Below, piece after piece: positions 2,860-64,000 of a DNA stretch of 64,000 nt (the stretch's first letter is position 1; each line of letters starts with the position of its first letter). The stretch is taken from IMG/VR virus record IMGVR_UViG_3300021400_000072; one strand, 5' to 3'. This stretch comes from a virus. Below the pieces are notes generated by a model. It worked only from the letters and a program-made list of their open reading frames with translations, did not search any database and was not told the origin of the DNA. A program made the position numbers and the translations under genes.

Positions 2860-2868
2860 ATATTTCTT

Positions 2869-5882: not shown

Positions 5883-5887
5883 AGATA

Positions 5888-5950
5888 TAAAAACTATTAA
5901 AGGTACGCTTTATGGGTGGAAGCGGCGCGTACTTGATTTTAATAGTTTTT
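5888..5950 (-). other. long leader hairpin between promoter 5953-5995 and tRNA-Gly(TCC)
   Basis: AAAACTATTAAA...TTTAATAGTTTT outer stem with inner GTACGC/GCGTAC stem. Confidence 0.4.
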
Positions 5951-5952
5951 AT

Positions 5953-5995
5953 TTGTTATGATAATATTATATCAAAAATTTTTGAATATTTCAAA
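5953..5995 (-). promoter_or_regulatory. promoter TTGAAA-N17-TATAAT
   Basis: Minus-sense TTGAAAtattcaaaaatttttgaTATAAT. Confidence 0.5.
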
Positions 5996-6008
5996 TTATT
6001 TTTGACCT

Positions 6009-6308
6009 TTATTTAGAAAAATAATATCTTCGCCAATACTTATAAAAATCTTTTAATGTAGGATAATCTTCTTGCCAAACAATACCATACATATTAGGAT
6101 GAAAATATTCAAATTTAGCATCTTTCCATGTCCATCTACTAATATAGTCATGTATATGCTATGTTTCAAAGACTTTTTTATAAGCATTTCCATTAGGAAG
6201 AATAATTTTACTACGTCTTATTCTTTTATTTGCTTGTCTTTTGTTTCGTTTAGGAATAGGCGTACGCCCATCTGTATAAACAGGATTCTTTTTATATGAA
6301 CGTGACAT
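6009..6308 (-). CDS. basic hypothetical protein (~99 aa) with one in-frame TAG
   Basis: ATG at 6308 with RBS AAAGGAG; ORF runs to TAA at 6009 through one TAG (absent from the ORF track for that reason). Likely cotranscribed with tRNA-Ile and the tRNA-Gln-like gene. Confidence 0.45.
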
Positions 6309-6323
6309 ATTTTTCTCCTTTGA

Positions 6324-6395
6324 TTGCGAGGGTAGGATTCGAACCTACAATCACCGGGTCAAAAACCGGCCGCTTTACCGTTAGCGTACCTCGCT
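6324..6395 (-). tRNA. tRNA-Gln(TTG)-like with 8-nt anticodon loop (TTTTTGAC) and unpaired A1:A72
   Basis: D-arm CGCT-AACGGTAA-AGCG; anticodon stem (G)CCGG/CCGG(T) enclosing 8 nt; T-arm GTAGG-TTCGAAT-CCTAC. Arm sequences resemble E. coli tRNA-Gln1 except for the loss of the position-39 nucleotide. Confidence 0.45.
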
Positions 6396-6517
6396 TACTT
6401 ATCATACCTTTTTATCTGTCTGAGAGTAGCTACCTCTCCCCATCTACTTACCACAATCCTTGATAATATTCTTTGATAAGCATAATACATGTTATATGAC
6501 GTCATTTTATGTATTAG

Positions 6518-6591
6518 TAGGGGACCTGGGACTCGAACCCAGGACACGCACCTTATAAGGATGCTGCTCTCACCTACTGAGCTAGTCCCCT
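6518..6591 (-). tRNA. tRNA-Ile(TAT)
   Basis: AGGGGAC-TA-GCTC-AGTAGGTGA-GAGC-A-GCATC-CTTATAA-GGTGC-GTGTC-CTGGG-TTCGAGT-CCCAG-GTCCCCT-A. Confidence 0.8.
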
Positions 6592-24693: not shown

Positions 24694-24764
24694 GGCAAAA
24701 AAAATAGGGCCTGGAATATTCCAGGCCCACACACAGAAAGGAGGACAAATAAAAGTCAGTCAAG

Positions 24765-24837
24765 TGTGCCCGAAGGGACTTGAACCCTCGACCCTTTGAT
24801 TAAAAGTCAAATGCTCTACCAACTGAGCTACGGGCAC
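24765..24837 (-). tRNA. tRNA-Lys(TTT), second copy
   Basis: GTGCCCG-TA-GCTC-AGTTGGTA-GAGC-A-TTTGA-CTTTTAA-TCAAA-GGGTC-GAGGG-TTCAAGT-CCCTT-CGGGCAC-A. Confidence 0.85.
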
Positions 24838-37681: not shown

Positions 37682-38794
37682 ATGGAAGATTCAAAAAATT
37701 TAAAGTTAGATTATACTATTTAGTCTCCATAGGCGCGAACTGCCTTAGTTCAACAAATAATAGATTCTCTACCTCCTGAAAAAATAACAAAAAAATATTT
37801 AGAAGTAATGGCTGATTATATTATATTTGCTATGACAAAGCAAGAGAAAAAAGATAAATTAATAAATACAAGCAATAGAATGATTACGGTAAATAAAAGA
37901 GAAAAATCTTTTTAGGGGTTAGTGAGTAAATTTTAGAACGGAGAGGACGGAATATATAATTTAATAACAAATGATAAAAATATTATTTTTACGCCTAAAA
38001 TATCTATTACGGCAGAAGATATTGAAACTATTCCTGGTCTTAAACAGTTACAGTAGGCTATTGCGGAAACCGAAGCCCGCGAGAAAAAGGCTAAAGGAAA
38101 AAATCGTTTTATATTAAAGCAACAATTAATTCAATTACGTCAAGATCAATATGTTTTAAAAAACTCTTATAAACAACCTATTAATTGTTTAAATGGTATT
38201 AAAAATTTTTATTCTCTTAATTTTGATGATAATATAACAATAAAGAATGGAAAAATAGAAGATAAAAGTTTAATATCATTTATGAATCCTAAACATGTTT
38301 CTGCTCTTTTGTGTAATTATTCTCGATTAAAAGAAAGCTGTTATGGTAAATTTTATACAGATGGTTATTTTCTTATGGAAGCATTAGATAAAATAGTAGA
38401 CCAAACCTTTGAAAAAGATTTTCCTCTTTATTACAGTCTTTTGATTTATAAAATAGATGGAAAGACAAATCTTTAGATTCAATCTCTTTTATAGCAATAG
38501 CATGATGCTCATTATTCTATATAGTATATATCTTCTCTTTGGCGAAATAAAATTCCTAAAATGATTGCGGAAACTGCTACGAAAAATTATCTCTTATGGT
38601 ATTATACTAATAAAGAAAAAGGCGAATGGAAACGCTGTTCAAGATGTGGATAGATTAAACTAGCTCATAATATTTTTTATTCTAAAAATACCTCCAGTAA
38701 AGATGGTTTTTATTCTATATGTAAAGACTGTCGTAATAAAAAGAAAAATAAGGTAGTAAAGATAGTAAAAAGAATACCGTATAAAGGAGATTAA
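37682..38794 (+). CDS. hypothetical late protein (~370 aa), TAG-recoded
   Basis: Frame continuous from ATG 37682 to TAA 38792 through more than 10 in-frame TAGs. Confidence 0.5.
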
Positions 38795-38795
38795 T

Positions 38796-39200
38796 ATGAT
38801 TAAAATGACATGTCCAAAATGCGGACGCACAATGGAAGAAATTAAATTTTTCTTTTACAGAGATGATAGGAAAAAGAAATATCCTATTTGTAAAGATTGT
38901 ATTAAAATGTATATAGATGACTATAATCCAGATACTTTTGTAAAATATATAAAAGAATTTAATGACCCTTGGTCACCTACTTTATGGAACAAGATGTTAG
39001 AAAAAGAAGAGATTCGAAGAAAAGAACAAAAAGGTCTTTATAAATATCTAACAAATACTCCGTCTATTATAGGAAAATATTTAGCTTATGTAAGACTAAA
39101 AGGCTTTCAAGCTTTTACATGGGAAAGAAGTGACTAGTTTGAAAAAGGACAGTCACGTTTACATCATTTAAGCAATCTTTCTTCTAAAGAGGAGGGGTAA
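38796..39200 (+). CDS. zinc-ribbon protein, paralog of 39204; one in-frame TAG
   Basis: MIKMTCPKCGRTMEE...; frame continues past the TAG at 39135 to TAA 39198. Confidence 0.5.
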
Positions 39201-39203
39201 AAT

Positions 39204-40406
39204 ATGGCAAAAATAACATGTTAGAAATGCGGTCGTACCATGTAGGAAGTTAAATTCTTTTCTTATCGAACGGGTGAAAAATTTTAGATATGTAAAGAAT
39301 GTATAACTTTACACGTTGATAATTTTGATGAAAGTACTTTTTTATGGATAATATAGAAGGCAGATGCTCCTTGGGTTCCTATTTTTTGGAATAGAATTAG
39401 AGATAAAGAGTATGCGAAGCACGGTGGAAAATTAAAAGGGACATCTGTTATTGGTAAATATTTATCCTATGTAAAATTAAAACAATATAAGAAATATACT
39501 TGGGCAACAAGTTAGGAATTACAAAAGTAGGTTTCTCAAAAAGAAGGTGTAGATAAAGAGGCATAGGAAGTCCGCCAAGAAAAATTAAAAGAACAACTTG
39601 AAAAAGGTGAAATTAGTTAGGCACAGTATAGAACTTTATCAAGTTCAGAATTTCAAAAGTAGAATGAATATATAATGATGCCTAAAATACCTTAGCAAGA
39701 TGCTATCGGTAAAGATAATGCTTTTAATGAAAATGATTTTTTCCCATAGGAAGAGTTGCCTGATTTGGCGGCCGACCTTACGTTAGAAGATAAGAAATAT
39801 CTTGTTATGAAATGGGGCCGCACTTATAAAATGAATCAATTAATTGAACTTTAGAAAAAATATGTTTAGATGACGAATTCGTTTGATATACAAGATGCAG
39901 ATAGTAAAAATTCTTTGATTCTTATTTGTAAGACTTATTTAAAAATGAATTAGGCTTTAGACTGCGGAGATGTAGAAGGATATGGTAAATATAGTAGAAC
40001 CTATGATATGTTAAGGAAGTCCGCAAAGTTTACCGCAGCACAAAATAAAGAAGAAAAGGGTGATGCCGTTGATTCAGTTGGTGAATTAGTTGCCTTTTGT
40101 TAGAAAAATGGTGGGCGAATACCTAGATTTTAGATTAAACAACCTGATGCTATTGATAAAATTATTGATGATTTAAAAGCATATAATAGAAGTCTTATTT
40201 ATGAAGATGCTGCTCTCGCAAGACAAGTTTAGGATTATTTGAAACAAGCAAGAGCGCAACAAATGAAGAAAGAAGATACTAAAATAGCTAAAGAACAAGG
40301 CTTTGATGTACCTCAATTAACAGAAGAAGATACATTAGCTTATAAAGAATTTTTAAGACAATAGGCTGATGAAACTGAAAAAATAACAGGGGGGCATCAA
40401 GAATGA
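39204..40406 (+). CDS. zinc-ribbon N-terminal domain protein (~400 aa), TAG-recoded; paralogous N-terminus to 38796
   Basis: MAKITC-x-KCGRTM... aligns with the 38796 product; about 20 in-frame TAGs; TGA stop overlapping the next ATG (ATGA). Confidence 0.5.
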
Positions 40407-41335
40407 GTTTACAAACATTATTAGATAATTCTCTTGCTTATGAAGGTAAAAAACAAGGTATATCTGAATAGAGATTACTTTAGCATATAGATGATATAAG
40501 AGATAAAATTGCTTTTTTTAGATAGTATCCTGATTTATTTATTGATTTTATACAAGGTCCAGAGGGTACTTTTAAATTTCTTTATTACCAGCGGATCTTT
40601 TTGCGAATTGTTATGCGGCATCGGTATGTTTATGCAACGTTCCCGCGTGCGTATTCAAAATCCTTTTTATCAATGATGGCGTTGATGATTAGATGCGTTC
40701 TTTATCCTGGTGCCGATTTATTTGTAACTACGGGTGGTAAGGAACAGGCTGCTTCAATTACTGTAGCGAAAATTGAGGAAATTTGCCGTTTAATTCCCGC
40801 GCTTGCAAATTAGATAAACTGGGATAGAGGTAAAACTAAAAAGTCAAGAGATGATGTAAACTATGTATTTAAAAACGGTTCAAGAATAAGTATTCTTGCC
40901 GCAAAAGAATCTTCAAGAGGACAAAGAAGAACAGGCGGAATTATGGAAGAATGTGTTCTTATTGACCAAACAATGTTAAATGAAGTTATTATTCCTACTA
41001 CTAACGTTAATAGACAACTTGCGGACGGCACTCGTGATAGCAAAGAAGTGGTTAATAAGTCACAAATATATATTACTACCGCAGGATGGAAGAATTCGTT
41101 CGCTTATGATAAACTTATTTAGCTATTGATACGTAGTTTAATTTAGCCAGATGAAGTTATGATAATGGGCGGAACTTATGAAACGCCTATATTAGAGGGG
41201 TTGTTAGATGAAGATTTTGTATAGCAATTAAAATTATCTGGTACTTTTAATGAGGATTCTTTTGATAGATAGTATAAAAGATTTTGTACTATTAAAATTA
41301 TTGAGAATTGCTGGAACACCCTTAGAGCCATATAA
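40403..41335 (+). CDS. terL: terminase large subunit, N-terminal ATPase part (upstream exon or split gene)
   Basis: ...RYVYATFPRAYSKSF... P-loop-like, ...LFVTTGGKEQ..., ...IYITTAGW...; TAG-recoded; ends at TAA 41333 just before intron-like RNA. Confidence 0.55.
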
Positions 41336-42255
41336 ACTACAACATAGAAATGAAAGATATTCAAGTGTGAATGTTTAAAAATTATATGGATTGGGAAATC
41401 AGCAGCCGAGCCTTGAACAGAGGAAGGTTCAACGACTAAGTACTTTACAATGCGTAAAGCAGTACAATACAGAATACAAAAGAAAGGTTATTATTATGAA
41501 ACAAATTATTATTGATAATATTAGTACCTCTTATTTTATTACTGAAGATGGAAAATGTTATAATTCTAAAACAGGTAAATATTTACAAGGACAATAGAAT
41601 TATAAAAACCATTATTTTTCTTATATGTTAACTATGCCAGACGGATCTAAAAAAAGACGTTATGCGCATAGATTGGTAGCTATGGCATTTTTACCTTAGC
41701 CATAGAATAAAAATAAAACAGAAATAAATCATAAAGATGGAAATAAATTAAATAATTACATTGATAATTTATAGTGGGTAACTCCTCAAGAAAATGCTCA
41801 ACATGCATTAAAAAATAATTTAAGAAAATTTGAGCATGTTTTTTGTTTCAATAAAGATCAACAATTAGTTGCAGAATATAAAACTGTAAAATAGGCAGCT
41901 AAAGCTGTCAAAATTAATGAATCTTTAATATATCAAGAATTACAAAAAGAAATAAAAACTCTTTCTGGGGGTTTTTATTGGTCGAAAGAAAAAAAATTAA
42001 AAAAAATAAAGAATTATCCAAATTTAGGAAAATCAAAAGAGGTTTTTCAATACGATTTAAATGGACGTTTTATTAATAAATACAATTCTACAGGAGAGGC
42101 TGCTAGAAGTTTAGGAGTTTCTTCTAATTCACATATAGGAGAATGTTGCAGAGGTAAAATAAAAACATATAAAGGTTTTATATGGAGATATTCTGAAGAT
42201 ATAGTCTCGCCTTCAGAGAAATCTGAAGAGAGTGATTGCGGTCACTCGTAAGATA
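41336..42255 (+). mobile_element. probable group I intron carrying an HNH homing endonuclease ORF, inserted in terL
   Basis: Non-coding flanks have GGGAAATCAGCAG (P4-like) and CAACGACTAAGT (P7-like); ORF 41496..42251 has NHKDGNKLNNYIDNL-x-WVTPQEN (HNH) and a NUMOD-like ...GEAARSLGVSSNSHIGECCRGK. Confidence 0.5.
41496..42251 (+). CDS. HNH homing endonuclease with C-terminal NUMOD-like HTH
   Basis: See the intron entry; 5 in-frame TAGs. Confidence 0.65.
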
Positions 42256-43125
42256 AGTGAGATCGTTATGGAGCGGAGACGCTTAGAATGCATTTTTCTC
42301 ATCTTAGGTTTTTGATAAACATAGAGTATTGCGGCAGCCGGAAGGAGAGTATAGCGGCAGGTCTAGTAGATCAGCCTATTATGTACTAGGAGTTGACGTT
42401 GGCCGTATAGGATGTACGTCGGAAGTAGCTGTTTTTAAGTGCACCCCGCAACCGCAAGGAGCAGCAATTAAATCTTTAGTTAATCTTTATACTTTTGAAG
42501 AGTAGCATTTTGAACAACAAGCAATACATATAAAGAAAATATATTATAAATATAAAGCTAGAAAGATTGCATTAGATACAAATGGTTTAGGAATCGGTCT
42601 TTTAGACTTTATGGTACTAGCACAGGAAACAGATGACGGTGACTACCTTCCGCCATTTGGTGTTTAGAATGATGAAGAAGGTGTTTATAAAAAAATTTTT
42701 AAAGGAATATCTTAGTATTAGAAAGATGCTATATTCCAAATAAAAGCTAACGCTCCAATTAATACATAGGCTTATTCTTATGCTCAAACACAAATGTCAA
42801 GTGGAAAAATTAAATTTTTAATTGATTAGGCTTAGGCTAAAGCAAAATTAATGTAGACAAGAACAGGTCAAAATATGACTCCAGATAAAAGAAATGAATA
42901 TCTTCGTCCTTTTGTTTTAACTACAGTATTAAGATAGCAAATGTTAAATTTAGTATAGGATAACGAAGGTGTAAATATTATTTTAAAACAAGATAGTCGC
43001 GGAATAAAAAAAGATAAATTTTCTGCTTTTGTCTATGGATTATATTTTATTAAACAAGAAGAGTAGCGGAGTCGTAAAAGAAAAAAGAGAGATTTAAGTA
43101 AAATGTGTTTATTTACACCTTATTA
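42256..43125 (+). CDS. terL: terminase large subunit, C-terminal RNaseH-like nuclease part
   Basis: ...EYSGRSSRSAYYVLGVDVGRIGCTSEVAVFKC..., ...KIALDTNGLGIGL...; frame opens right after the HNH stop; exact 3' splice site not determined. Confidence 0.55.
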
Positions 43126-43213
43126 ATTTTTATAAAATAATGGACAAAATTTAACAAAAAGATTTTTTTATTTTTAATATTATTATAGTTAAAGAAAGGA
43201 GAATATATTTTAT

Positions 43214-43573
43214 ATGAAGTCTTCTCGTGCAGAAATAAAAATATGTTAGATTTTATAGCAGGCAGGTCTAGATTTTCAGGAAGAATATAGTTTTCCTGAT
43301 TTAATAGGTCGTGGCGGCCATGCTTTACGTTTTGATTTTGCTGTTTTTGATGATGATGGAGAATTATGGTTTTTAATTTAGTATCAAGGTATTCAACATT
43401 ATAAAGCAAAAAGTGTTTTTGGCGGAATGTCAGGGCTAAATCAACAACAGTACTATGATATGCAGAAACGTTAGTATTGTAAAAAGCATGGTATAAAACT
43501 TTTAATAATCCCGTATTGGGATGAATATCAGATAAGTTATGATTATATTATGAACTTAGCTGATGTCTATTGA
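43214..43573 (+). CDS. PD-(D/E)xK-like nuclease fold protein (~119 aa)
   Basis: ...LRFDFAVFDDDGELWFLI-x-YQGIQHY...; 5 in-frame TAGs. Confidence 0.4.
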
Positions 43574-45260
43574 AGGCGGTGATTTTTTGGTAAATAGAAA
43601 AGAAGAGATAAAGAAAAAAGGTTTTAGAATGAGACCTTCTTTACAAGATACCAATGAAACATACTCCCCCGCATTAGACTTTTCAAAAATAAAAGTAGGT
43701 GTAAAAACTCTTGAAGATGCTGTTGTATCTTTGGGAGAATTTAAAAGAATTAATCCTAGACTTGGTGATAAGCAATAGGTGCTTAAAGCTATCAATAATG
43801 GGAATAAAGCTATGATGATAGAAATATCTAATTTCTTTTATCGTACCAGCGGTATTTATGCAAGATTATGTAGATATATGGCATACTTGTATAAATATGA
43901 TTGGTTTATTACTCCTTTTGTAAAAGGATGTTAGGGCTTATTAGACCCTGATAGCGGATTAGGTAGTATATAGACAAGTGAATAGGATAAAGAAAAGAAA
44001 AAACAATTTCAAAATTTCTTTAAAGTATTAAAATTCTTTTAGGCTTTTGAAGTAAAACGCTTTTGTGGTGAGGTTGCTTTAAAAGTAATAAGAAACGGTA
44101 GTTATTATGGATATTTATTACCTCAAGGCAATAAGGTTGTAGTGCAATAGTTACCAGTAAAATATTGTAGATCTAGGTTTAAGATTTCAAATCGGCCAGT
44201 AGTAGAATTTAATATGAAATATTTTAGAGATGCGTATCCTGATGAAACACAGCGTTATCGTATATTAAAACTTTTTCCTAAAGATTTTCAAAAAGGCTAC
44301 AAATTATATATTGGCGGAAAGCTAAAACCTGATTTCCCTGGAGACGAGTCAGGATGGTATGTATTAGATCCAAAAAGTACCGTAAAATTTAATATTAATG
44401 AAGAAGATTTCCCTCCTTTTATTTCTGTTATTCCCGCTATAATCGACCTGGATGCCGCACAATAGTTAGATAGAAAAAAGATGGCACAGAAACTTTTAAA
44501 AATCATTATTCAAAAAATGCCATTGGATAAAAATGGTGATTTAATTTTTGATGTTGATGAAGCACAAGAATTACATAATAATGCTGTTCAAATGGTTAGT
44601 CGTGCTATTGGTGTTGATATTTTAACTACTTTTGCGGATGTTTAGGTTGCAGATATGTCTGACAGAGGAACAACAACAACCATTGATGATTTATAGAAAG
44701 TATAGAGAACGGTTTATAATGAAGCTGGTGTTTCACAATTACAATTTAATAGTGATGGTAATATAGCATTAAATAATTCTATTGCTAATGATGAAGCATC
44801 TATGTATAATTTATTAACTCAGTTTGAATCTTTCTTAAATCTATTGTTAGAACCTTTTAATAAATCACCAAAAAGATGTTATTATCAGGCGCAATTCTTA
44901 CCTACAACTATTTATAATTATAAAGATTTGGCTAAGTTATATAAAGAACATGCGCAAATGGGTTATACGAAAATGCTTCCTCCCGTTGCGTTAGGTCAAA
45001 CACAGAGTTCGGTATTAGCAAATGCGTTCTTTGAAAATGATATTCTTGATCTTGTTAGGGTCTTTGTTCCTCCGCTTACTTCTAATGTTATGAATGCAGA
45101 GGCTTTACAGCAAAGATCTGCGGTAAATAGAAGTGGTGAAAACGGACAATCTGGTGGTGGAAAAGAACCTTCTGGTAGTAAACCGGAAGGTGCTGGCCGC
45201 CCGGAAAAACAAGATAATGAGAAAACAGAGAAAACAATAATGAATAAATAGAGTATGTAA
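43563..45260 (+). CDS. portal protein (~565 aa), TAG-recoded
   Basis: Size, position after terL, acidic C-terminus; frame verified from ATG 43563 to TAA 45258. Confidence 0.55.
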
Positions 45261-45271
45261 GGAGAAAGATA

Positions 45272-46618
45272 ATGGCATTAGCACATCAAAGTATTGCTAC
45301 TATTAAATCTCCTGAATTTATAAACTTACAAACCTTAGATATAAATCCTCTAATGTCCTCTTGTGAGATTAAAGTTTTTTATTTAGGAGAAAATCGTAAC
45401 GGTAGTTTTATATCAAAATAGGTTGCTACGGAAATGGCTAAAACTTTACGTGGCGCGCCTATTGTTGGATATTATAAAAAAGATAAAGAAGATTTCGCAG
45501 ACCATGGCGATCAAGTCATCTTAGACGATGAAGGTTTTCATTTTAATTGTTTAACTAAACCATATGGTTTTGTGTCTCCTGATGCAAAAGTGTGGTTTCA
45601 AGATTTTGAAGATACAGATGAGTTTAATAATAATGTTATTAGAACTTATTTAATGACAACAGGTTATCTATGGACAGGACAATTTGAATAGGCTAAACAA
45701 GTCTTTGATGACGGCGGAAAGCCTCAGTCTATGGAATTAGATGAAAAAAGTTTACAAGGTCATTGGGCAAAAAATTCAAAAAGTAATATGGAATTTTTTA
45801 TTATAAATGACGCAATATTTTCAAAGTTATGTATTTTAGGTGACAATGTATAGCCTTGTTTTGAAGGCGCATCTGTAACCTCTAATACATTTAAGTTAGA
45901 TAAAGATTTTTCAAATACTTTATTTAGTATGATGAAAGATCTAAAATATGCCTTAGAAAAAGGAGGACAACCAGAAATGGCAAAACTTGAAAATCAAGCT
46001 CCTGAAGAAGTAAAGGACACTTTTGTTGAAACTTCTTTTGAGAAAAAAGAAGAAGAAAAGAAAGAAGAAAAATCTGATTCTCAAGGAGAAGGTACAACAG
46101 AAGATAAAGAAGAAGAAGATAAGAAAAAGAAAGAATATACCGCAAAAGACGATAAAGAAAAGAAGGATTAGGAAAAAGAAGATTCTTCTGACGATAAAGA
46201 GGATTCTGCGGAAGAAGAAAAAGAAGATGAAGATAAGAAGAAAAAGTTTACAGCTTTACAGGCTGATTACGAAATCTTATCTCAAAAATATTCTGATTTA
46301 GAAAAAGAAATTGCTTCTTTAAGAGAATTTAAACAAAACATTGAAGATAAAGAAAAGGATGCCTTAATTAATCAATTTTTTATGTTAACAGATGAAGATA
46401 AGAAGGATGTTATTTAGAATAAGTCTAAGTATACTCTTGAAGAAATCAAATCAAAATTAGCAGTAATTTGTTTTGATAAAAAGGTCAATTTTAATTTAGA
46501 AGAAGATTCTGAAAATGAAAAAGATTAGAAGGGTATTATTACTTTCAATGTTGTAGAAACAGAAGATCCAGACCCTGAATGGGTAAAGGCTGTTAAAGCC
46601 AATATGGTTAATTTTTAA
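45272..46618 (+). CDS. scaffolding-like protein with long acidic K/E/D low-complexity region
   Basis: Between portal and capsid; EEEKKEEK... region; coiled-coil C-terminus. Confidence 0.5.
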
Positions 46619-46635
46619 TTAGGAGGAATGTTAAT

Positions 46636-47229
46636 ATGGCTGTTGATAAAACAAGAAAAGGCTTCGGACAAGTTGAACCGAACCATCTTTCAGCTAGATA
46701 TACTGGACAAATTTACGCTCAGTTACCTGCAAAAGATTCAGAAGGCAATGCTATTAAACAGCTTGAAAATGGTCAATTTCTAAAATATGACTATGCGGCA
46801 GGCTGTGCTAGCGATAATAATGCTTCTGCAGGGGAGTGGATGTTAGTATTTAATGAGGAAAAACTATATGATGAGCGTTATCAGAATCACAGATATTTTG
46901 CTCTGAAAAATACAGATTTTACTGATAAACTTATTTATCCTCGTCTTTTAAAGACAAATATTGGTGATATTTTCACAACTAATACTTTTAAATCAACTGA
47001 TGAAACACCTAAAACAGTAACTACTGGAGATTAGGTTATTAATTTACCTACTCTTGCAGTTGGTGCTACTGTTGTAGTTGGTGATGATGGTTGGTTAAAA
47101 GCAGGAACTCCTAGCGCAGGACAAATGGCTTTTAAGGTAGTTCCGCATTTTACACAAATTGGAACAACTGGTGTTGATTATACTCTTGGAGATATGCAGT
47201 ACGCTGTTAAGCTTCAGAGAGTGCAATAA
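46636..47229 (+). CDS. minor capsid / decoration-like protein (197 aa)
   Basis: Immediately upstream of the capsid gene; one TAG. Confidence 0.4.
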
Positions 47230-55356: not shown

Positions 55357-55454
55357 TAGGGCTAAATAATTTAATTTTGATCGCTCTCTTTGTATAAATA
55401 TACAAAGAGAGCGATTTTTTTATTTTATTTGAAATATAAAGGAGGAGATAATTA

Positions 55455-58400
55455 ATGGCTCAACAAGGAGGAAGAATAGATTTTCAAATAGGTTTTAAAA
55501 CCGATAAATCTGGAATATAGGATTTAAAGAAATCTTTACAATAGATACAAAAGATTAAACCTGCGAATTTCGATGGCACAAATCAAGATTTGCAAGAAGT
55601 TAAATCTACTGCTAAAGAAGTTGAGGCAGCGTTATCTAAGGCTTTTAATCCTAATATTAATTCTATAAATTTAAAAACATTTGATAATCAATTAAAAGCG
55701 TCAGGTAAAACTATAAATGATATATATACAAGTTTTTCTAAAGCTGGCGCACAAGGCTAGGTCGCATTTAGTCAAATGGCTAGGTCTGTACTTACCACAA
55801 ATCAGCAATTAAAAGAAACACATAGTATTATTAATTAGATGGGTACAACATTTGTTAATACTATTAAATGGGGTGTTGCATCTAGTATAATGAATACTTT
55901 TACAGCAAGTGTTCAAGGTGCTTTCACATATGTTGAAAGTTTAGAGAAATCTTTAACAAATATTAGAATTGTTACTGGTGATTCCCAAGAGAAGATGGAG
56001 CAATTTGCGGATTCTGCTAACCGTGCCGCTCAAGAATTGGGCCGTAGCACTATGGATTATAGTAAGGCCGCACTTACTTTCTATCAACAGGGTTTAGGAG
56101 AAGAAGATGTTCAGGCTAGAACTGAAGCCGTTTTAAAAGCATAGAATATTACTGGCGCGGGCTCATAGATGGCAGATTACTTAACCGCAGTGTGGAATGG
56201 TTATAAAGTCGCTAATGAATAGGCGTAGGTTTATGTCGATAAGCTCGCCGCAGTTGCAGATAGAAGTGCTTCTGACATGAGTTAGTTAGCTATTGGTATG
56301 TCTAAAGTTGCGTCTACTGCTAATACAATGGGTGTAAATGTAGATCAATTAAATGCTCAATTGGCTACTGTTATTGCTACAACAAGACAGGCGCCAGAAG
56401 CTGTCGGTACAGCATTTAAGACTATATATACTCGTTTGAATGATATTAAAACTGGCGCGGATGGTGCTTAGGTAAGTTTAGGAAACTATTCTGGTAAGAT
56501 GGCAGCATTAGGTTTTAATGTTCTTGATGCTACAGGTCATCTTAGAGATACAGGATAGGTTATGTAGGAAATAGGTGCCCGCTGGGAAGACTTAACAAGA
56601 GAACAACAAGTTTATTTGGCTACTACAATGGGTGGTCAAAGACAGGTTAACCAGTTAATGGCTCTATTTGACAACTGGACTACATATAGTGAATTATTAA
56701 ATACATCCCTTGAATCTGAAGGTACTCTTGCACAGAAAAACTCTGTTTATTTAGAGTCTCTTGGTGCTAAGATGGAACAATTAGGAGCAGCAGGAGAACG
56801 TGTAAAAGCTAGTTTAATTGATAATGAGAGTTTTGGTAATGTTATTGAATTATTAACAACTGGAACTAATTTATTAGGCAGTTTCATTTAGGCTATCGGC
56901 GGCGGTGGCACTGCTTTACTTGGATTAGGCGGTATCGCTACGCAAGTTTTTAGTGGCGTTATTTCTAAAGAAATTAATAATGCTATTGTTAATTTTCAAA
57001 ATATGAAATTTAATGCTTAGCAAACTGCAAAAGAATTATAGCTTACTCAACAGTTTGGAGAAAGAAATAATTTTGATCAATCTAAAGTTATTGATTAGAT
57101 GTTAAAAGCTAAACAATAGATGCAAGGATATTACTCTGTAATGTCTACTGAATAGAGAAATGCTTATAATGAATTAGTCAATGCTTTAGGTGTTGCTAAA
57201 GAGCAAGTTATTACAGAAGAAGATAAAATAAAAAAAGCTGAATAGTACAATAAAGCTTTACAAGCAGTTGCTGATGAATATTAGATAGATCTTTAGGCTC
57301 AACGGTTAGGAGTTGTAGAATATACTGATAGCATTACTAATTTATTAAATAATTTAAAAAAGGGATCAGGAGATAAATCTACTCTTTTTGCAGATTTAAA
57401 TTTACAAATTGAAGAATTAGAAACTAATTTAGGAACAATGTCTCCTAAATTAAAATCTATGTTTGAATAGCTTAAATCTCTACAAGGAGAAAAGGAAGAT
57501 AAAGATAGAATTTTAGCAGCTTTTTTCCCAAATGGAGATAAAGGACTTTAGCAATAGTCTTAGGCATTAAGAAGAAAAATTACAAATTTAATAAATTAGA
57601 TTAATAATGAAGTAAAAAATTTAACAGATTTAAGTATAGATATTGATGTTCATACTAAAGGATTAAAAGAAGCTAAAGAAGATTTGGCAAAAGCAGAAGA
57701 AGCTGTTAAGAATTATCAAAAAACAATGTCTCAAGCTTTAGATGTAAAGAATATAGTTTCAGGCATTGGAGAAATAGGTCGAATGTCATCTGCTTTTATG
57801 GCATTAGGAAATAGTATAAAAACAGCATTCGATTCTAACATATCTCCTTCTGAAAAATTTTTTAAAATTTTAATGAGTGCTTCTTACTCTATTCCTACGA
57901 TAGTAACTAGTTTTGAAAGATTAAAAACTTATACTAAATCTTTATCTGATGCTATAAAGGCGGCTAACATTGTAAAATAGGCATAGAATAAAATAGATAC
58001 TGCTAAAGCAGCGATTCAAGAAAAAGAAATTGCTAATAATGCAATAGAAAGTGGACAGAGAATAGCAGAGGCCACAGAAGAAGGTATAGTTACAACAGCT
58101 AAAGGTGCAGAAACAGTTGCTACTAATTTATTAGCAGCAGCTTAGGAAAGATTAGCAGCCGCAAGAGCAACAAATCCTTTAGGTTTAACTTTATTGGTAA
58201 TTGCTGGCGCAGTTTTAGCTATAAAAGGTCTTACTGCGGCATATGATGCTGTTACTATGTCTACTGAATAGGCAGGTTAGGCTATTGATAAATTTAATCA
58301 AAAAGCAGAACAAACTAAAAATACAATCAAATAGTATAATACTAATATTAGTAATTTAGATGCTGCTAAGGAAGAGTGGGAAGAGCTAGCTGATCGTGCT

Positions 58401-61400
58401 GGAAGTTATAATACAACTATTGATAACTTAACAGAAGACGAAAAGGCACGTTATTTTGAATTAAGCAATTTAATTGCTCAATATAATGAAGGTGCTGTTC
58501 AAGGATATGATGAACAAGGCAATGCAATTATTGCAAATAATGACGCTTTAAAAGAAACTATTTAGTTATTAAAACAAAAACGTCAAGAAGAAATTAATGA
58601 CACTTATTCAGGTGAAGATTTTTAGTAGGCTCAAAAAGGTCGTCAAGCCTATGCTAAAGACGCAAATAAACAAGGTAAAAAATTTACTAATATTGCAGAA
58701 GGCTCTGCTAATGAGATTTTAGATTATCTAAATTCATATGGAAATGATTTAGATGATGGATTAACAGGGTTTAGAGATAGACTTGCTGAGATTACTGCTA
58801 AAGGCGAAAAAGGTATATTAGAACATCAGGAAGAACTTATTCAAATTTTTGAAAAGTTAATGGAAAGTGGAAAATTACCTGACGCTTATATGTCACAACC
58901 CATTTTAGATACTTTAAAAGATTATAGTGATAAATATACTGATGATATAAAGGGAGCCTTAGATGGTTTTAACGAAGATGTAATTGGTGTACTTCAAGTT
59001 TCTACAGATAACGAAGGTTCTAATTTTACTAAAGCAGAATAGGCTGGCTTAACAAATATGAGAGGAATCGTTTCTTCTTATATAGAAGGAATGGATAAAT
59101 ATAACCCAGACGGAACTTTAAAAACACCTTAGGAAATTGCTAAACAAGTTTAGAAAGAAATTGTAACTCCTATTTATGAAAGTCTTGGTCAAATTGATCC
59201 TTAGACAGAAGAAAGTTTATATCAAAAATTAATTAAAAGTATTACAGAAGACGATAAATTACAAAATAATGATTTTAGCAGTTTAGAAGAAAAAAATAAT
59301 TATATCGTTCAAAAAATAGAAGATTTTATCCAATCTAATATTGAAGCATTTGAAAATTTAACTCCTGATGCTAAAAAAGCATTAGAAGATTTGTTTGCTA
59401 ATTTATATAATTTAGATAGTTTAAAAATTAATTTTAAAACTGGAAAAGTAGAATAGTCTGTAGATAAAGCATTAGATAGATTAGCAAAAAGGATTAACAA
59501 AGATTGGGATGAGCTTGATGCAAAAACTCAAGATAAAAAGAGAAACGCTTTAACCTCAATATTAAAATCTGATATAGATGAAAAAGAATTAGATTATATT
59601 ACATAGCATATAGAAAAAGCTATAAAAATATATGGTAATGAAGTTGAAGCAATAAAAGCATTACAGGAATAGGCTTCTAAATTAGGTAATTTAGATGATA
59701 ATTTAAACACTATGAGTTTGTTAGACAAACAAGCTAGTGGAGAAAAATTAGGTCAAAAAGAACAATAGTCTTTATAGTCTGGATTAAATACTTTAAAAGA
59801 TAGTTATCCTGATTTAATCAAGCAAGTTTAGATTCTTCAAACATAGTGGATGCAAGGTACTTCCGCCTATGAATAGGCTTTAAGAAAAGTAAAAATGGCT
59901 TTAATAGATACATTAGGAGAATCTTTAAATAAAGCTTTACTTTAGGCAGAAGATAGTGTTTTATAGCAAGAAAAAGCATTATAGGATTATAATAATAAAA
60001 TTTTAGATTTAACAAGAACTACTGAAGATTATCAAACAATTTTACGATTAAGCAAAGTAACAGATTAGACTAAACAACAAAGTTTAATTAAAATTGCAAC
60101 AAGCTACGAAAGTTGTAGAGATTAGTTAGAAAAATATTATAAAACAATACAAGAACATCCTGACGATTTATAGGCACAAGAACCCGAAAGATTTGCGCTA
60201 GAGCGTTCTACCAGAGCAGCAGAAAATGGAGAGCAGTTTGGTATTGATCCAGAACGTATTCAAACTTTAGCGGCACAATATTCTGAATTAGCAGACCAAG
60301 AAGCAGCAGGATATGAAGGTTTAAATTAGAATGCAGAATTAGCAGCAGACGCCGCCACTCGTTATATTAGACTTAATGATGCTATTGCTGATTTACAACA
60401 AAATTATGATAAAGTAACATCTGTTTTGTCTGATTTACGAACTTTAGGACTAGAAGAAATTGCGGCAAATAAAGATTTATCTGATACTTTTCAACAGATA
60501 AAAAAAGATGTTGCAGGAATAGTGGATACGTCAGAAGATTTAATTGGAGATGACTGGATAAAAGATCATGCTGGTTAGATTCAAGCTGCTTTAGAAGGTG
60601 ATCAATAGGCCATAGATAGTTTACGAGAAGCTGCTCAAGAAGAAATTTTAACTAATGTAGGTATCGATTTTGAAGGTTTTGATGAACAAAAAGCAGGATT
60701 TTTATCTCGCTTAAATGAATTAGAAGATGGTGCTGATATAACAGCAGAAATGTCTTTAGATGATGTAGCTTTTCTTCAAAATCTTGTTTCTGCTATGTAG
60801 CAAGCTGGCATGGCGCAAGCAGATATTGAAAATGCTTTAAGCGGACTTGGAATAGATGTTGATTTAGCTCCTTATGAAGAAGGATTAAATTCTGCCATTG
60901 ATCAAGCTGCAGAAGCGGGAATGCTTTCTTCTGATGCTTTTGCAGGCAATGCAGGTGTAAATTCTACTATAACTACTTCTACGGATACTGCCCAAGATAC
61001 AGTATAGGCTCCTGGTTATGATGTGACTCCAACAGACGTTCCTTTTAGCATTTCTTTACCTGTAGTTGCACCTGCAATGTATCCAGGAGTAGCAATTCCT
61101 ACTTTTACAGGAGGAATTGCTACTGCACCAGGCTCTTATCCCTCAATTGAAGTTACTCCTAAAACAGAGTCTGTTGAAGCTACCAAAGAAACAACTGGAA
61201 CGGGTTTATAGGTAGTAGGTGCGAGAAAATCTTCTGGTGGTAAAGTTAGTCATAAAAATGCATCAGGTGGTAATAAAAAATCTTCTGGTGGTAAAGGTAA
61301 AGGCGGTAAAGGTAAAAAAGGAGGAGGTAAAAAAGGCTCAACTAAAACTCCTAAAGTTTAGAAACCTATTACAGATAAACCTGACCGTTACCATGATGTA

Positions 61401-64000
61401 AATCTTAAATTAAAAGATATTGATAATGATTTAGGCAAACTTCAGAAAAAATAGCAAAAATTAACTGGCAAAGATTTACTTAAAAATCTTAATGAGCAAT
61501 TAAAACTTCTTGAAAAACAAGTAGCTACTTATAAAGAAAAAATTTAGTTAGAAAAACAATAGGCTGATTAGATTCGTAATCGTTTAAAGAAATAGGGCGC
61601 TACATTTGGTCCTGACGGTAATATATCTAATTATAATAAAGTTCTTTCTGATGCTTTAAATGAATATAATGCAACTATCGCTAAATATAATAAAATGAGT
61701 GCGGAAGAGCAATAGAAAAATAAAGATATGCTCGAAAAGGCTAAATAGAAATATGAAAATCTCAAGAAAGATATTTAGCGTTACGATAAAATTATATCTG
61801 AAGAAATTCCTGGATTAGAGAAAGCTGTACAAGAAGCAATAGATAAACAAACTTAGATTAACATTCAAAAATTTAAAGTTAAAGTAGATTTAGAGATGGA
61901 TATGTCTGAAGCATAGCGTGAATTTAATTAGTTTGTTAAGAAAGTAAAAAAACAACTAAGAGATGACGATGTTCTTGGAAATGCTCAGGCATATTTAAAA
62001 GATTATTCTTCTTATTATAAAGGCGGGTATGATGTAATTCAAGCGTTAACGGATCAAATCCGTAATACTAGAAATTAGATTAATAATATTGATAAACAAG
62101 GTTCTTCTTCGGTATACGGAAAAGATAGGGCGGCCGCAATTAAAGATTTACAAGAATATACTAAAGAGTTAATGAGCAATCTTTCAGATATAGAAGATGT
62201 TGTTGCAAATATTAAAAATACTATCTTTGATGCTATTGATAAGGCTCAAGATGCTTTTGATGAACAAAAGAAAGAGTATGAATATATTGCAGATTTAATT
62301 GAACATAATCAAAAGGTTGTATAGTTATTATATGGTGAAGATGCTTATAATCAATTATAGGAATATTATAAATTACAATAGAAGAATAATAATAATCAAT
62401 TAGATTTTTTAAGACGGCAAAAAGAAATGTGGTATTCTCGTATGGAAGCAGAGCGGAAGAGGATGAATAATCTTACTGAAGGTACAAACGCCTGGAAAGA
62501 AGCTAACGACCGCTTTGAAGAATATAAGAGACATTGGATGGATTCTTTGGATGAAATTAATGGTTAGATTTAGAACTCTATTGAGAATTTAATTGATAAA
62601 TATACTAATGCTGTTGATAAAATCTTTTTAGCTTTTGAGAATAATATTACTGGCGGAAAAGGCTTAGAAAATATTTCTGAGGAATGGTAGTTAATCGGCA
62701 AGCAAGCGGATCAATATTTAGATAAAGTAAATTCTATGTATGAGATTGATAAACTTGAAAATGCTTATAGGGATGCTATTGATGATAATGACGGTAATTT
62801 AAAAGCACAACAATCTTTAAATAATTTAATGAATGAACAATTAAAATATTTAAAGGATAAAGATAAATTAACTCAATATGATGTTGATAGAGCAAATGCT
62901 TTATTACAAATTGAAATTAAACGTTTAGCTTTAGAGCAAGCTCGTCAAAGTAAAACTAAATTACGTTTAAGAAGAGACTCGCAAGGTAATTATACTTATC
63001 AATATACTGCGGATGAAGATGCTACAAGACAGGCTCAACAAGAACTCGCGGATGCTGAAAACAGTCTATATAATTTAACGAAATAGTCATATAAAAATAA
63101 TTTAGATGATTATTATGATACTACGGAAGAAATGAATGAAAAGATAAGGGATGTATATAAGGATACAACTTTATCTGCAGAAGAGCAAAATCAAAAAATT
63201 GCTATGATTTATGAATATTATGGTGATATTATAAATGGTTTAACATAGCAAAATGAAGATTTAAAGAGATTTATGATGGAAGATACATTTAATGAAATGG
63301 CTAAAATGTATGATACCAACGTATAGAACTTTAAAAATATGACAGATGAAGAAAAAGATATTTTTATGAATGATATGGTTCCTTATTGGAAATCAAGTAT
63401 TCAAGATATGGCTGATACTTTTGCGGGCGCAGGTGGTTTTGGTCCTATAACGTAGGATCTATTTAAAGATTTAATAGATAATTCTAAAGATTATCAAGAT
63501 TCATTAGATGAAATAGGTAAAGTTGCAAATGTTAGTTTAGAATAGATTAAAAATGCTACAGATATAAATATTCAAAGAGCAGAATCATTATTAGAAAAAA
63601 ATGATGAATTAATTAATTCTTATAATAAAGAAATGACAAAAGTACAAGAGGTTATTAATCAAGTAAATGCATTAACTAATGCTTATCAAAAGGCTAAAAA
63701 TGAAGCAATTGCCGCGACATAGGCCGCTTATAATTTTAATCAACAAGATAATGCTAAGACAGTAAGTTCTTTAATAAACAATAAAAAGACTGCGGGAGAT
63801 GCTCAATATAGAAAAGCGGCATCTTTCGATACCGGAGGATATACTGGAGATTGGGGTGATATGGGAAAAGCAGCAATCTTACATGAAAAAGAGATTGTAT
63901 TAAATTCTTATGACACAACTAACCTTTTATCGGCGGTTAAAATTACAAGAACATTAGATAATATTATATCTAATTTTGCAATGAAGCCTTTCACTCTTGG
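55455..64000 (+). CDS. tail tape measure protein (partial, >2840 aa), heavily TAG-recoded
   Basis: One continuous frame from ATG 55455 (RBS GGAGGAG) to the window end; frame continuity checked across several ORF-track fragments. K/G-rich linker at 61230-61370 and coiled-coil segments. Confidence 0.6.

What the first reader, a model, noticed from the sequence alone, without database searches (positions are those of the whole stretch)
40403..43125. Terminase large subunit split by an HNH homing endonuclease inside a probable group I intron
ATPase part (40403-41335) and nuclease part (42256-43125) are separated by 920 nt that encodes an HNH/NUMOD endonuclease (41496-42251), flanked by non-coding sequence with P4-like GGGAAATCAGCAG and P7-like ACGACTAAGT. 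The nuclease-domain frame opens exactly after the HNH stop codon. Both exons are TAG-recoded.
Basis: partly seen in the sequence, partly recalled or inferred. Interest (0 to 1): 0.6.

Follow-up and report, generated by a model that had tools for sequence, protein, structure and literature searches.

The report
Mobile group I intron splitting terL
A phage DNA-packaging gene is interrupted by a self-splicing group I intron carrying its own HNH homing endonuclease, which is a well-known kind of selfish element; the check also showed that this phage reads the TAG stop codon as glutamate, not the glutamine usually assumed.

Summary
The large terminase gene (terL, SPbeta YonF type) is one continuous gene in close relatives. 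L125, L135 and L136 (95-97% aa) match the window up to ...GATAGATAGTAT and then run straight into exon 2. This places exon 1 at 40403-41275, a 984-nt intron at 41276-42259 and exon 2 at 42260-43126.

The intron has every group I element: P1 with a U.G pair at the 5' splice site, P10, P3-P9.1, the R and S core elements, and a terminal G. A covariance model built only from ORF-less relatives, seven of which Rfam calls Intron_gpI at 63-95 bits, hits 41297-41438 at 143 bits (E 1.5e-29). Family covariation is strong (96% of cells paired, 27 of 42 pairs compensatory).

An I-HmuI-like HNH/NUMOD endonuclease ORF (41496-42251) sits in the P8 loop. The same intron and endonuclease occupy the same site in terL genes only 35-53% identical, and P1 and P10 covary with the exons in L102. 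Introns in phage terL are already published, so this is a new member of a known kind.

Unexpected by-product: TAG aligns with Glu, not Gln (majority residue E at 56 of 77 sites, Q at 2). The same method recovers Gln for phAss-1.

The parts
40403..41275 (+). terL exon 1 (ATPase domain, 291 codons, 8 in-frame TAG). Ends ...GAT AGA TAG TAT.
   Evidence: The alignment to uninterrupted homologs puts the junction after ...FDR(TAG)Y. The nucleotide junction is fixed by L125, L135, L136 and L126. phrog_2 terminase large subunit scores 1.4e-10.
41276..42259 (+). Group I intron, 984 nt, IA-like, no P2. It begins after U41275 and ends with G42259.
41270..41291 (+). P1: exon strand UAGUAU (41270-41275, including the recoded TAG codon) pairs with the internal guide GUACUA (41286-41291). 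U41275.G41286 is the wobble pair at the 5' splice site.
   Evidence: 6 of 6 positions paired. In L102 the pair is GAGUUU/GGACUC, in L091 GAGUUU/GAACUC and in EF1 CGUGAGU/GCUCACG. The guide therefore covaries with the exon.
41280..41284 (+). P10 guide GAUUU, pairing with the first five bases of exon 2 (AGAUC, 42260-42264).
   Evidence: 5 of 5 paired. In L102 the pair is GGAUUU/GAAUCC.
41297..41438 (+). 5' catalytic domain. P3 5' strand 41299-41303; P4 41308-14/41399-405; P5 41319-21/41393-95; P5a 41328-35/41382-89; P5b 41342-45/41365-68; P6 41411-14/41420-23; R element and P7 5' strand GACUA 41434-38.
   Evidence: Model R1, built without the window, hits this span at 143.2 bits, E 1.5e-29, full length, and it is the only hit in 64 kb. 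Every helix is fully paired. The span is 83-89% identical to the ORF-less introns L078, L063 and L077.
41440..41469 (+). P7.1-type hairpin (CUUUAC 41443-48 / GUAAAG 41454-59), followed by the P3 3' strand CAAUA (41465-41469).
   Evidence: The hairpin appears in the MFE fold of the ORF-deleted intron. P3 is 5 of 5 paired, and P3 covaries in the family at 5 of 6 pairs.
41470..42195 (+). P8: CAGAAUA (41470-76) pairs with UAUUCUG (42189-95). The endonuclease ORF is looped out in L8.
   Evidence: 7 of 7 paired. ORF-less relatives have a short P8 hairpin at this position.
41496..42251 (+). HNH/NUMOD homing endonuclease ORF (251 aa, 5 in-frame TAG). A purine-rich candidate ribosome-binding site, AAAGAAAGG, ends 8 nt upstream. 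The last ~20 codons overlap P8', J8/7, P7', P9 and P9.1.
   Evidence: Pfam HNH_3, NUMOD1 and I-HmuI_NUMOD-like. phrog_59 scores 7e-37. I-HmuI (PDB 1U3E) scores E 2.2e-9. Orthologs in L102 (65% aa), L091 (59%) and L050 (76%) occupy the same intron position.
42196..42259 (+). 3' core. S element AAGAUAUAGUC with P7 3' strand UAGUC 42202-06; P9 CUUCAGA 42211-17 / UCUGAAG 42222-28 with a GAAA loop; P9.1 GAGUGA 42230-35 / UCACUC 42242-47; terminal G42259.
   Evidence: P7 is 5 of 5 paired. P9 covaries at 6 of 6 pairs in the family. The alignment is, and the sequence.
42260..43126 (+). terL exon 2 (nuclease domain, 288 codons plus TAA, 13 in-frame TAG). Starts AGA TCG TTA TGG.
   Evidence: phrog_24618 scores 6.7e-48 and phrog_5909 (terminase large subunit) 2.7e-4.

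Best explanation
terL is transcribed as a precursor carrying a 984-nt IA-like group I intron (41276-42259).

Splicing (inferred from the anatomy):
- The last six exon-1 bases (UAGUAU) pair with the internal guide GUACUA to form P1, with a U.G wobble at the cleavage site.
- A free guanosine bound at P7 attacks after U41275.
- The terminal G42259 then enters the G site, and P10 (GAUUU with AGAUC) aligns exon 2.
- The exons are ligated to ...GAT AGA TAG TAT|AGA TCG TTA TGG..., giving a 579-aa TerL with an ATPase and a nuclease domain.

Mobility (inferred):
- The P8 loop carries an I-HmuI-like HNH/NUMOD endonuclease with its own candidate ribosome-binding site.
- By analogy with I-HmuI, it nicks intron-less terL alleles of co-infecting relatives near the insertion site.
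- Recombinational repair then copies the intron, and some adjacent exon sequence, into them (homing).

What is shown and what is inferred:
- Shown computationally: the exact junction, the full ribozyme architecture with family covariation, the endonuclease family, presence/absence polymorphism, and occupancy of the same site in divergent terL genes.
- Inferred: actual splicing, endonuclease activity and its target.
For: 1. Junction.
- The intron-less relatives L125, L135 and L136 are identical to the window over the last 45 nt of exon 1 and then continue directly into exon 2.
- L126 reads TAT|AGATCATTATGG.
- L139, from another metagenome, carries the same intron start, 78 of 78 nt.

2. Ribozyme.
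- P1, P10, P3, P4, P5, P5a, P6, P7 and P8 are each 100% paired. A U precedes the 5' splice site and a G ends the intron.
- Model R1, built from 14 ORF-less relatives without the window, hits 41297-41438 at 143.2 bits, E 1.5e-29.
- Rfam Intron_gpI hits coincide with 7 of those 14 introns at 63-95 bits (L063, L077, L093, L108, L071, L047, L009). Of the others scanned, L078, L056, L069 and L076 gave no hit.
- In the 15-sequence alignment A1, 96.2% of cells pair, against 32-41% when partners are slid. 27 of 42 pairs have compensatory changes, and 0 of 500 shuffles reach this.

3. Endonuclease. Pfam HNH_3, NUMOD1 and I-HmuI_NUMOD-like; I-HmuI 1U3E at E 2e-9.

4. Mobility.
- The same intron with an orthologous HNH lies at the same codon boundary in L102 (terL 53% aa, HNH 65%) and L091 (35% / 59%). 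L050 carries the 3' end of the same intron with a 76%-identical HNH C-terminus. P1 covaries with the exon in L102 and L091, and P10 in L102.
- Against L125 there are 7 synonymous differences in the first 9 nt of exon 2 and none in the last 76 nt of exon 1. The overall difference is 116 of 1740 nt.

5. The intron is a multiple of 3 in length but has in-frame stops, and the HNH ORF is in another frame. Read-through and an intein are therefore excluded.

6. Precedent. Group I introns with HNH genes in phage terL have been shown to splice in vitro and in vivo (PMC11878797).
Against: - There is no RNA or protein evidence here.
- Rfam's general model does not hit the window itself even at E up to 10, nor at gathering threshold. 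This is expected, because a 712-nt P8 loop (41477-42188) holding the ORF splits the core.
- P2 is absent. P3 (5 bp, A/U-rich) and P6 (4 bp) are short.
- In alignment A1 the window's P3 3' strand is misaligned and had to be placed by hand.
- The ORF's 3' end overlaps P8' through P9.1, so translation could compete with folding.
- The TerL assignment rests on PHROG matches and annotated homologs only. Pfam, NCBIfam and PDB sequence searches found nothing.
Confidence: 0.9

Rival explanations
1. Split terminase. The ATPase and nuclease halves are translated as two separate polypeptides, and a free-standing HNH gene merely lies between them.
For: Under a naive gene call the region gives three ORFs. 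A GTG at 42257 could in principle start the second half. PHROGs holds separate 'unknown function' families for each half (phrog_15503, phrog_24618).
Against: The close relatives in hand encode one continuous gene or carry the same intron; others are interrupted by introns at other sites. The spacer is a complete, covarying group I core whose guide pairs exactly with both exon ends. No purine-rich ribosome-binding sequence precedes 42257. The separate PHROG families are most simply explained by deposited genomes that were annotated without splicing, such as EF1.
Confidence: 0.03
2. It is a genuine group I intron but not autonomously self-splicing. Either it needs a phage or host protein cofactor in vivo, or it is a recently inactivated copy.
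For: In Bastillevirinae several terL and polymerase introns spliced only in vivo, not in vitro (PMC11878797). Here P3 and P6 are short, P2 is missing, and the ORF overlaps the 3' core.
Against: The window keeps the residue at all 72 invariant columns of the family alignment and all core helices are intact. TerL is essential, and near-identical intron-bearing sequence turns up in a second sample (L139). Both argue against a dead copy.
Confidence: 0.12
3. A different kind of intervening element: a group II intron, an intein, or an insertion sequence.
For: None beyond the presence of an inserted endonuclease gene.
Against: There is no group II hit and no reverse transcriptase. The HNH ORF is in a different frame from the exons, and stop codons interrupt the exon frame inside the insert, which excludes an intein. 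No transposase domain was found on the HNH ORF; terminal inverted repeats were not searched for. The core is group I.
Confidence: 0.01

Closest known systems
Group I introns with HNH endonuclease genes in the DNA polymerase genes of Bacillus phages SPO1 and SP82 (I-HmuI, I-HmuII)
   Same: An IA-type phage group I intron carrying an HNH plus NUMOD-type DNA-binding endonuclease. The window ORF matches the I-HmuI structure 1U3E at E 2e-9 and Pfam I-HmuI_NUMOD-like.
   Different: The host gene is terL, not the DNA polymerase. The sequences share only the endonuclease fold and the core ribozyme elements. The endonuclease here contains 5 TAG sense codons. Placement of the SPO1 ORF in P8 is from my memory and was not checked.
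terL group I introns of Bastillevirinae (for example SIOphi and phiAGATE; PMC11878797)
   Same: Group I introns, often with a homing endonuclease in a loop that splits the ribozyme signature, interrupt phage terL, sometimes two or three per gene. Splicing has been shown experimentally. Relatives of the window's terL likewise carry introns at four or more sites.
   Different: A different terL family (SPbeta YonF type here; phrog_675 there). In that study the terL intron endonucleases were VSR-like (phrog_559); here it is a phrog_59 HNH. The window phage uses a recoded TAG.
Enterococcus phage EF1 or EF5 terL (MF001358, annotated 'HNH homing endonuclease # Phage intron')
   Same: A homologous terL (45% aa) interrupted in the same linker by an 811-nt intron. 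Its core is 75% identical to the window's over 140 nt, and it carries an HNH ORF.
   Different: Its insertion point is 2 nt upstream (GAGT|AT, against TAT| in the window). Its HNH is only 35% identical and 175 aa long. EF1 also has two further Rfam-detected introns upstream. It uses the standard genetic code.
TAG-recoded gut phages of the 'code 15 clade', such as phAss-1 (PMC10607447)
   Same: The same broad phage group (terL 42% aa). TAG is used as a sense codon in late genes, there is a large tRNA array, and the phage encodes a tRNA with a CUA anticodon.
   Different: In phAss-1, TAG aligns with Gln (agreeing with the paper). In the window's clade it aligns with Glu. The suppressor tRNAs are not homologous and differ in architecture.
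Lactobacillus delbrueckii phage LL-H terminase intron (Mikkonen and Alatossava 1995; from memory, not checked)
   Same: An early example of a self-splicing group I intron in a phage large terminase gene.
   Different: An unrelated phage and terL family. I could not verify the details with the tools.

Membership tests
Group I intron | P1 helix between the 5' exon end and an internal guide, with a U.G wobble at the 5' splice site | tested here: met
   UAGUAU (41270-75) pairs with GUACUA (41286-91), 6 of 6, with U41275.G41286. The guide covaries with the exon in L102, L091 and EF1.
Group I intron | The intron ends in G (omega G), and P10 can pair with the 3' exon | tested here: met
   G42259 precedes exon 2. 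P10 is GAUUU/AGAUC, 5 of 5, and in L102 GGAUUU/GAAUCC. No P10 was evident in L091.
Group I intron | Conserved catalytic core (P3-P8 with the P4-P6 and P3-P9 domains, and P7 formed by the R and S elements) supported by covariation | tested here: met
   All helices are paired in the window. The family alignment is 96.2% paired with 27 of 42 compensatory pairs and 0 of 500 shuffles reaching that. P4 and P7 are invariant, so they are uninformative.
Group I intron | Match to a curated or derived covariance model | tested here: inconclusive
   Rfam RF00028 gives no hit in the window at E up to 10 or at gathering threshold, because the ORF splits the core. Rfam hits coincide with 7 of the 14 ORF-less homologs used for the model at 63-95 bits. 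A model built from those 14 homologs hits the window at 143 bits, E 1.5e-29.
Group I intron | Guanosine-dependent self-splicing | not testable with these tools
   Needs an in vitro transcript with GTP and Mg2+, or RT-PCR from infected cells.
HNH homing endonuclease of the I-HmuI type | HNH (beta-beta-alpha-metal) catalytic motif plus C-terminal NUMOD or helix-turn-helix DNA-binding modules | tested here: met
   HNH_3 1.4e-11 (aa 55-102), NUMOD1 1.8e-14 and I-HmuI_NUMOD-like 9e-7. The motif ..INHKDGNKLNNYIDNL(TAG)WVTPQEN.. aligns to I-HmuI DHKDGNKDNNLSTNLRWVT.
HNH homing endonuclease of the I-HmuI type | Site-specific nicking or cleavage of the intron-less allele, promoting homing | not testable with these tools
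   Only indirect signs are available: presence/absence polymorphism among 95-97% identical phages, the same site occupied in 35-53% identical terL genes, and clustered exon-2 changes.
Large terminase subunit (TerL) | N-terminal ASCE ATPase and C-terminal RNase H-like nuclease in one polypeptide, encoded next to the portal gene | tested here: met
   phrog_2 1.4e-10 (N half) and phrog_5909 2.7e-4 (C half). 45% identity to the annotated TerL of Enterococcus phage H1. The portal gene (phrog_2739, 5e-73) follows. Walker-like SKS and MEE motifs and the VDVGR Asp motif were read from the alignment and interpreted from general knowledge. There were no Pfam, NCBIfam or PDB sequence hits, and no structure was predicted.
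Translation table 15 (TAG = Gln) phage | In-frame TAG codons align with Gln in homologs | tested here: not met
   Across 77 TAG sites in 9 ORFs the majority residue is E at 56, D at 12 and Q at 2. BLOSUM62 sums are E 213, D 107, Q 85. The same method on phAss-1 gives Q.

The most novel reading that the evidence does not exclude
This phage lineage (the window plus L125, L126, L128-L131, L133, L134, L138 and L141-L143) has reassigned TAG to glutamate. That is a different code from the TAG = Gln (table 15) assumed by the phage annotation tools and papers consulted here, and reported for its distant relative phAss-1.

Decoding would be by a Glu-class suppressor tRNA(CUA) that is not homologous to phAss-1's suppressor. 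The intron and its endonuclease are adapted to this code: the P1 exon strand contains the TAG codon, with the guide changed to match, and the HNH ORF needs five TAG read-throughs.

The alignment evidence is strong. The tRNA charging mechanism is inference. Four of my seven literature searches targeted this point and found no report of TAG = Glu in a phage, which is not proof that none exists.
Probability: 0.8. Interest if true: 0.8.

Novelty: new member of a known kind. Interest (0 to 1): 0.4.

Why it matters
For the intron itself:
- It is a clean, fully annotated example of a mobile group I intron with an HNH gene in an essential late gene of an uncultured, stop-codon-recoded gut phage.
- Naive gene calling splits terL into three "genes". 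Rfam's general model misses the ribozyme because the ORF splits the core.
- The precise splice junction allows correct TerL annotation and phylogeny. This terL family is an intron hotspot, with at least four or five sites.

The larger point is the by-product. If TAG means Glu here, automatic "code 15" re-annotation puts Gln at many conserved Glu positions across this clade (56 of 77 sampled TAG sites have Glu as the majority residue in relatives). Two related phage lineages would also have captured the same stop codon for different amino acids using unrelated suppressor tRNAs. That would make the evolution of stop-codon capture in phages directly comparable within one group.

Tried and rejected
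- Rfam scans of 40300-43300 at E up to 10, and of the whole window at gathering threshold, found no Intron_gpI. I rejected this as negative evidence, because the 712-nt P8 loop holding the ORF splits the core and a family-specific model hits strongly.
- Pfam, NCBIfam and PDB sequence searches gave nothing for either TerL half or for the fused protein. The TerL call rests on PHROGs, annotated homologs and context.
- My first reading of the 'P4-like' motif was a collapsed P4-P5 hairpin (GAUU-GGGA-AAUC).
- MAFFT misplaces the window's P7.1-P3' segment. I placed P3' (CAAUA, 41465-69) by hand and checked the complementarity.
- I first assumed that EF1's third intron sits at the identical site. Checking the sequence showed it is 2 nt upstream.
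- I looked for a CUA-anticodon tRNA in the window's tRNA array and found none. It lies just beyond the window's left end in relatives.
- I read through the translated large ORFs at 7-37 kb for a glutamyl-tRNA synthetase and none was apparent. They were not run through Pfam.
- Pairwise similarity of the suppressor tRNAs to other phage tRNAs was too weak to assign identity.
- Four literature searches for phage TAG = Glu found nothing relevant.
Full report
**1. The observation**

Under the standard code the region breaks into short ORFs. Reading TAG as sense nearly doubles coverage by ORFs of at least 100 aa across the window, from 32,190 to 61,352 nt. It also yields three long frames:
- 40403-41335
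- 41379/41496-42251
- 42257-43126

The middle ORF is an HNH endonuclease:
- Pfam HNH_3 1.4e-11, NUMOD1 1.8e-14, I-HmuI_NUMOD-like 9e-7
- phrog_59 7e-37
- I-HmuI structure 1U3E, E 2e-9

The outer ORFs are the two halves of an SPbeta YonF-type large terminase:
- phrog_2 at 1.4e-10 for the N half, and phrog_5909 at 2.7e-4 for the C half.
- A fused query finds 120 GenBank phage records, 95 of them covering at least 80% of the query in one piece. These include Enterococcus phage H1 'terminase large subunit' at 45% identity.
- The portal gene follows.
- Pfam, NCBIfam and PDB sequence searches are silent for TerL.

The R element GTTCAACGACTA and its partner S element AAGATATAGTC each occur exactly once in 64 kb.

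**2. The exact junction**

Alignment with uninterrupted homologs places the break at ...FDR(TAG)Y | RSLWSGDA. Nineteen related loci were found in IMG/VR.
- L125, L135 and L136 (95-97% aa) match the window for the last 45 nt of exon 1 (...GATAGATAGTAT) and then continue straight into exon 2.
- L126 (91%) reads TAT|AGATCATTATGG, almost the same as the window's AGATCGTTATGG.
- L139, from another sample, carries the same intron start, 78 of 78 nt.

Exon 1 is therefore 40403-41275, the intron 41276-42259 (984 nt) and exon 2 42260-43126. A one-base ambiguity (A on both sides) is resolved by the group I rule: U before the 5' splice site and G as the last intron base.

**3. The ribozyme**

All helices are fully complementary in the window:

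| Helix | Pairing | Score |
|---|---|---|
| P1 | UAGUAU / GUACUA, with the U.G wobble | 6/6 |
| P10 | GAUUU / AGAUC | 5/5 |
| P3 | | 5/5 |
| P4 | | 7/7 |
| P5 | | 3/3 |
| P5a | | 8/8 |
| P5b | | 4/4 |
| P6 | | 4/4 |
| P7 | GACUA / UAGUC | 5/5 |
| P8 | CAGAAUA / UAUUCUG | 7/7 |

P9 (7 bp with a GAAA loop) and P9.1 (6 bp) were read from the sequence. An MFE fold of the ORF-deleted intron recovers P1, P4-P6, P7.1, P8, P9 and P9.1.

Rfam's general model does not hit the window. This is because 712 nt of ORF-bearing loop in P8 separate the two halves of the core. Other evidence makes up for that:
- The 5' half is 83-89% identical to the ORF-less introns L078, L063 and L077.
- Rfam Intron_gpI hits coincide with seven of the ORF-less family members used below (L063, L077, L093, L108, L071, L047, L009) at 63-95 bits. 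L078, L056, L069 and L076 gave no hit.
- In a 15-sequence alignment (A1), RNAalifold recovers P3, P4, P5, P5a-c, P6 and P9.
- In A1, 96.2% of cells pair, against 32-41% when partners are slid by 1-3 columns. 27 of 42 pairs show compensatory changes, and no shuffle out of 500 reaches this.
- A covariance model built from 14 relatives without the window (A2, R1) hits 41297-41438 full length at 143.2 bits, E 1.5e-29. It is the only hit in the window.

The architecture is IA-like: an extended P5abc and a P7.1-type hairpin between P7 and P3', with no P2.

**4. Mobility**

An orthologous HNH sits in the same intron position at the same codon boundary in much more divergent terL genes:

| Locus | terL identity | HNH identity |
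|---|---|---|
| L102 | 53% | 65% |
| L091 | 35% | 59% |
| L050 | – | 76% (C-terminal part only) |

The guide sequences track the exons:
- In L102, P1 is GAGUUU/GGACUC and P10 is GGAUUU/GAAUCC.
- In L091, P1 is GAGUUU/GAACUC.

Enterococcus phage EF1 has a related intron with an HNH ORF 2 nt upstream. Its P1 is CGUGAGU/GCUCACG. It also has two further introns that Rfam detects.

Against the intron-less L125 there are no differences in the last 76 nt of exon 1, but 7 synonymous differences in the first 9 nt of exon 2 (AGA TCG TTA against CGT AGC CTT). The gene-wide difference is 116 of 1740 nt. This fits co-conversion from the intron donor, selection for P10 pairing, or target-site immunity, possibly in combination.

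Relatives carry introns at other terL positions as well: after about aa 113, about 198-230, 224 and about 402.

**5. Rivals**

- A split terminase with a free-standing HNH is contradicted by the continuous genes in relatives and by a guide that pairs with both exon ends.
- An intein is excluded by the frame and by in-frame stops.
- Group II is excluded because there is no reverse transcriptase and no Rfam hit.
- One possibility remains open. The intron may need a protein cofactor in vivo, as reported for some Bastillevirinae introns.

**6. What is known**

Group I introns with loop-encoded HNH genes in phage terL are published, with splicing shown in vitro and in vivo (PMC11878797). EF1's GenBank record already flags a 'Phage intron' here. 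This is therefore a new member of a known kind.

**7. TAG is not Gln here**

While checking 'TAG-recoded exons' I found that the TAG positions behave as Glu codons.
- In terL against L001 (71% identical, no TAG), TAG aligns with E at 15 of 21 positions and with Q at none. CAA/CAG Gln codons align with Q at 17 of 23.
- Over 9 ORFs in 37682-47229 (8 late genes plus the HNH ORF) and 31 related loci, window TAG aligns with E 595 times, TAG 392, D 140, K 58 and Q 53. This is the same profile as true Glu codons.
- Across 77 sites the majority residue is E at 56, D at 12 and Q at 2. BLOSUM62 sums are E 213, D 107 and Q 85.
- Relatives' TAG codons align with 7.3% of window Glu positions but only 1.7% of Gln positions.
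- As a control, the same procedure on phAss-1 recovers the published Gln, for example Q at 21 of 24 and 21 of 21 (PMC10607447).

The suppressor tRNA(CUA) lies just beyond the window's left end in the two closest genomes (L144:1605-1677 and L145:4917-4993).
- Both have a 3-bp D stem, a long D loop and a 4-nt variable loop.
- From general knowledge this is the Glu/Gln-class architecture, and the 4-nt variable loop and larger D loop are tRNA-Glu traits.
- L144's tRNA has C1-G72 rather than the U1-A72 typical of bacterial tRNA-Gln.
- phAss-1's suppressor has a 4-bp D stem, a 5-nt variable loop and U1-A72, and is not homologous.

The annotation-tool and catalogue papers I read treat phage TAG recoding as Gln. 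Four literature searches targeted at this point found no report of a TAG = Glu phage.

The intron is adapted to this code. The P1 exon strand contains the TAG codon, where relatives have GAG and a matching guide change. The HNH ORF needs five TAG read-throughs.

**8. Verdict**

The finding is confirmed and correctly interpreted, but it is ordinary as an intron. Interest is moderate because of the apparent TAG = Glu code that it exposed.

Noticed in passing
window 37682-47229 (all late genes tested, including terL 40403-43126 and the HNH ORF 41496-42251): In-frame TAG codons align with Glu, not Gln, in homologs. The majority residue is E at 56 of 77 sites and Q at 2. BLOSUM62 sums are E 213, D 107, Q 85. 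The same method gives Gln for phAss-1. This suggests a TAG = Glu code in this phage clade.
   Followed up: partly
L144:1605-1677 (-) and L145:4917-4993 (-), about 1.5-2.6 kb beyond the window's left end in the two closest genomes: A tRNA with a CUA anticodon lies next to tRNA-Ser(GCU). It has a 3-bp D stem, an 11-12-nt D loop and a 4-nt variable loop (Glu-like), and C1-G72 in L144. It is not homologous to the phAss-1 Sup-CTA tRNA (L146:19748-19821). No CUA tRNA lies inside the window itself.
   Followed up: partly
window 42260-42268: There are 7 synonymous differences in the first 9 nt of exon 2 compared with the 95%-identical intron-less L125, and none in the preceding 76 nt of exon 1. The window's version pairs with the intron's P10 guide and L125's does not.
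   Followed up: yes
window 43214-43573 (+): A small free-standing ORF (119 aa, 4 TAG) between terL and the portal gene matches homing-endonuclease families: phrog_9084 7e-27, and phrog_559 8e-26, the VSR-like type found in Bastillevirinae terL introns. This may be a second selfish nuclease beside terL.
   Followed up: partly
L138, L133, L043, L102, L091, L050, L003 (terL homologs): This terL family is an intron hotspot. Insertions lie after about aa 113/114, about 198-230 (two in EF1), 224/225, 291 (this one) and about 402. Several are detected by Rfam at 90-96 bits.
   Followed up: partly
window 1338-1930 (-): A full-length ROOL RNA (Rfam RF03087, 280.6 bits, E 3e-63) is embedded in the tRNA array.
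   Followed up: no
window 1-6591 (-) and 24764-24837 (-): There is a large tRNA array, with 14 tRNAs by ARAGORN and 18 by Rfam. One (6324-6395) has an 8-nt anticodon loop, called as the four-base anticodon UUUG. tRNA-Glu(CUC) at 4224-4300 is unusually long at 77 nt.
   Followed up: no
window 55452-64000 (+): A single TAG-containing open frame of at least 2849 codons runs off the right end of the window. Its function was not examined.
   Followed up: no
PHROGs families phrog_15503 and phrog_24618; GenBank MF001358 (L003): The two TerL halves each match a separate PHROG family of 'unknown function' (4.6e-59 and 6.7e-48). EF1's terL is deposited as separate hypothetical proteins. Intron-split terL genes therefore seem to be routinely mis-annotated as several genes.
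   Followed up: no
L063 (portal-like gene), L078 (helicase/primase-like region), L077 (terminase-like gene): The closest ORF-less relatives of this intron (83-89% identical cores) appear to sit in other phage genes, to judge from reading the flanking translations. The ribozyme lineage seems to move between genes.
   Followed up: no
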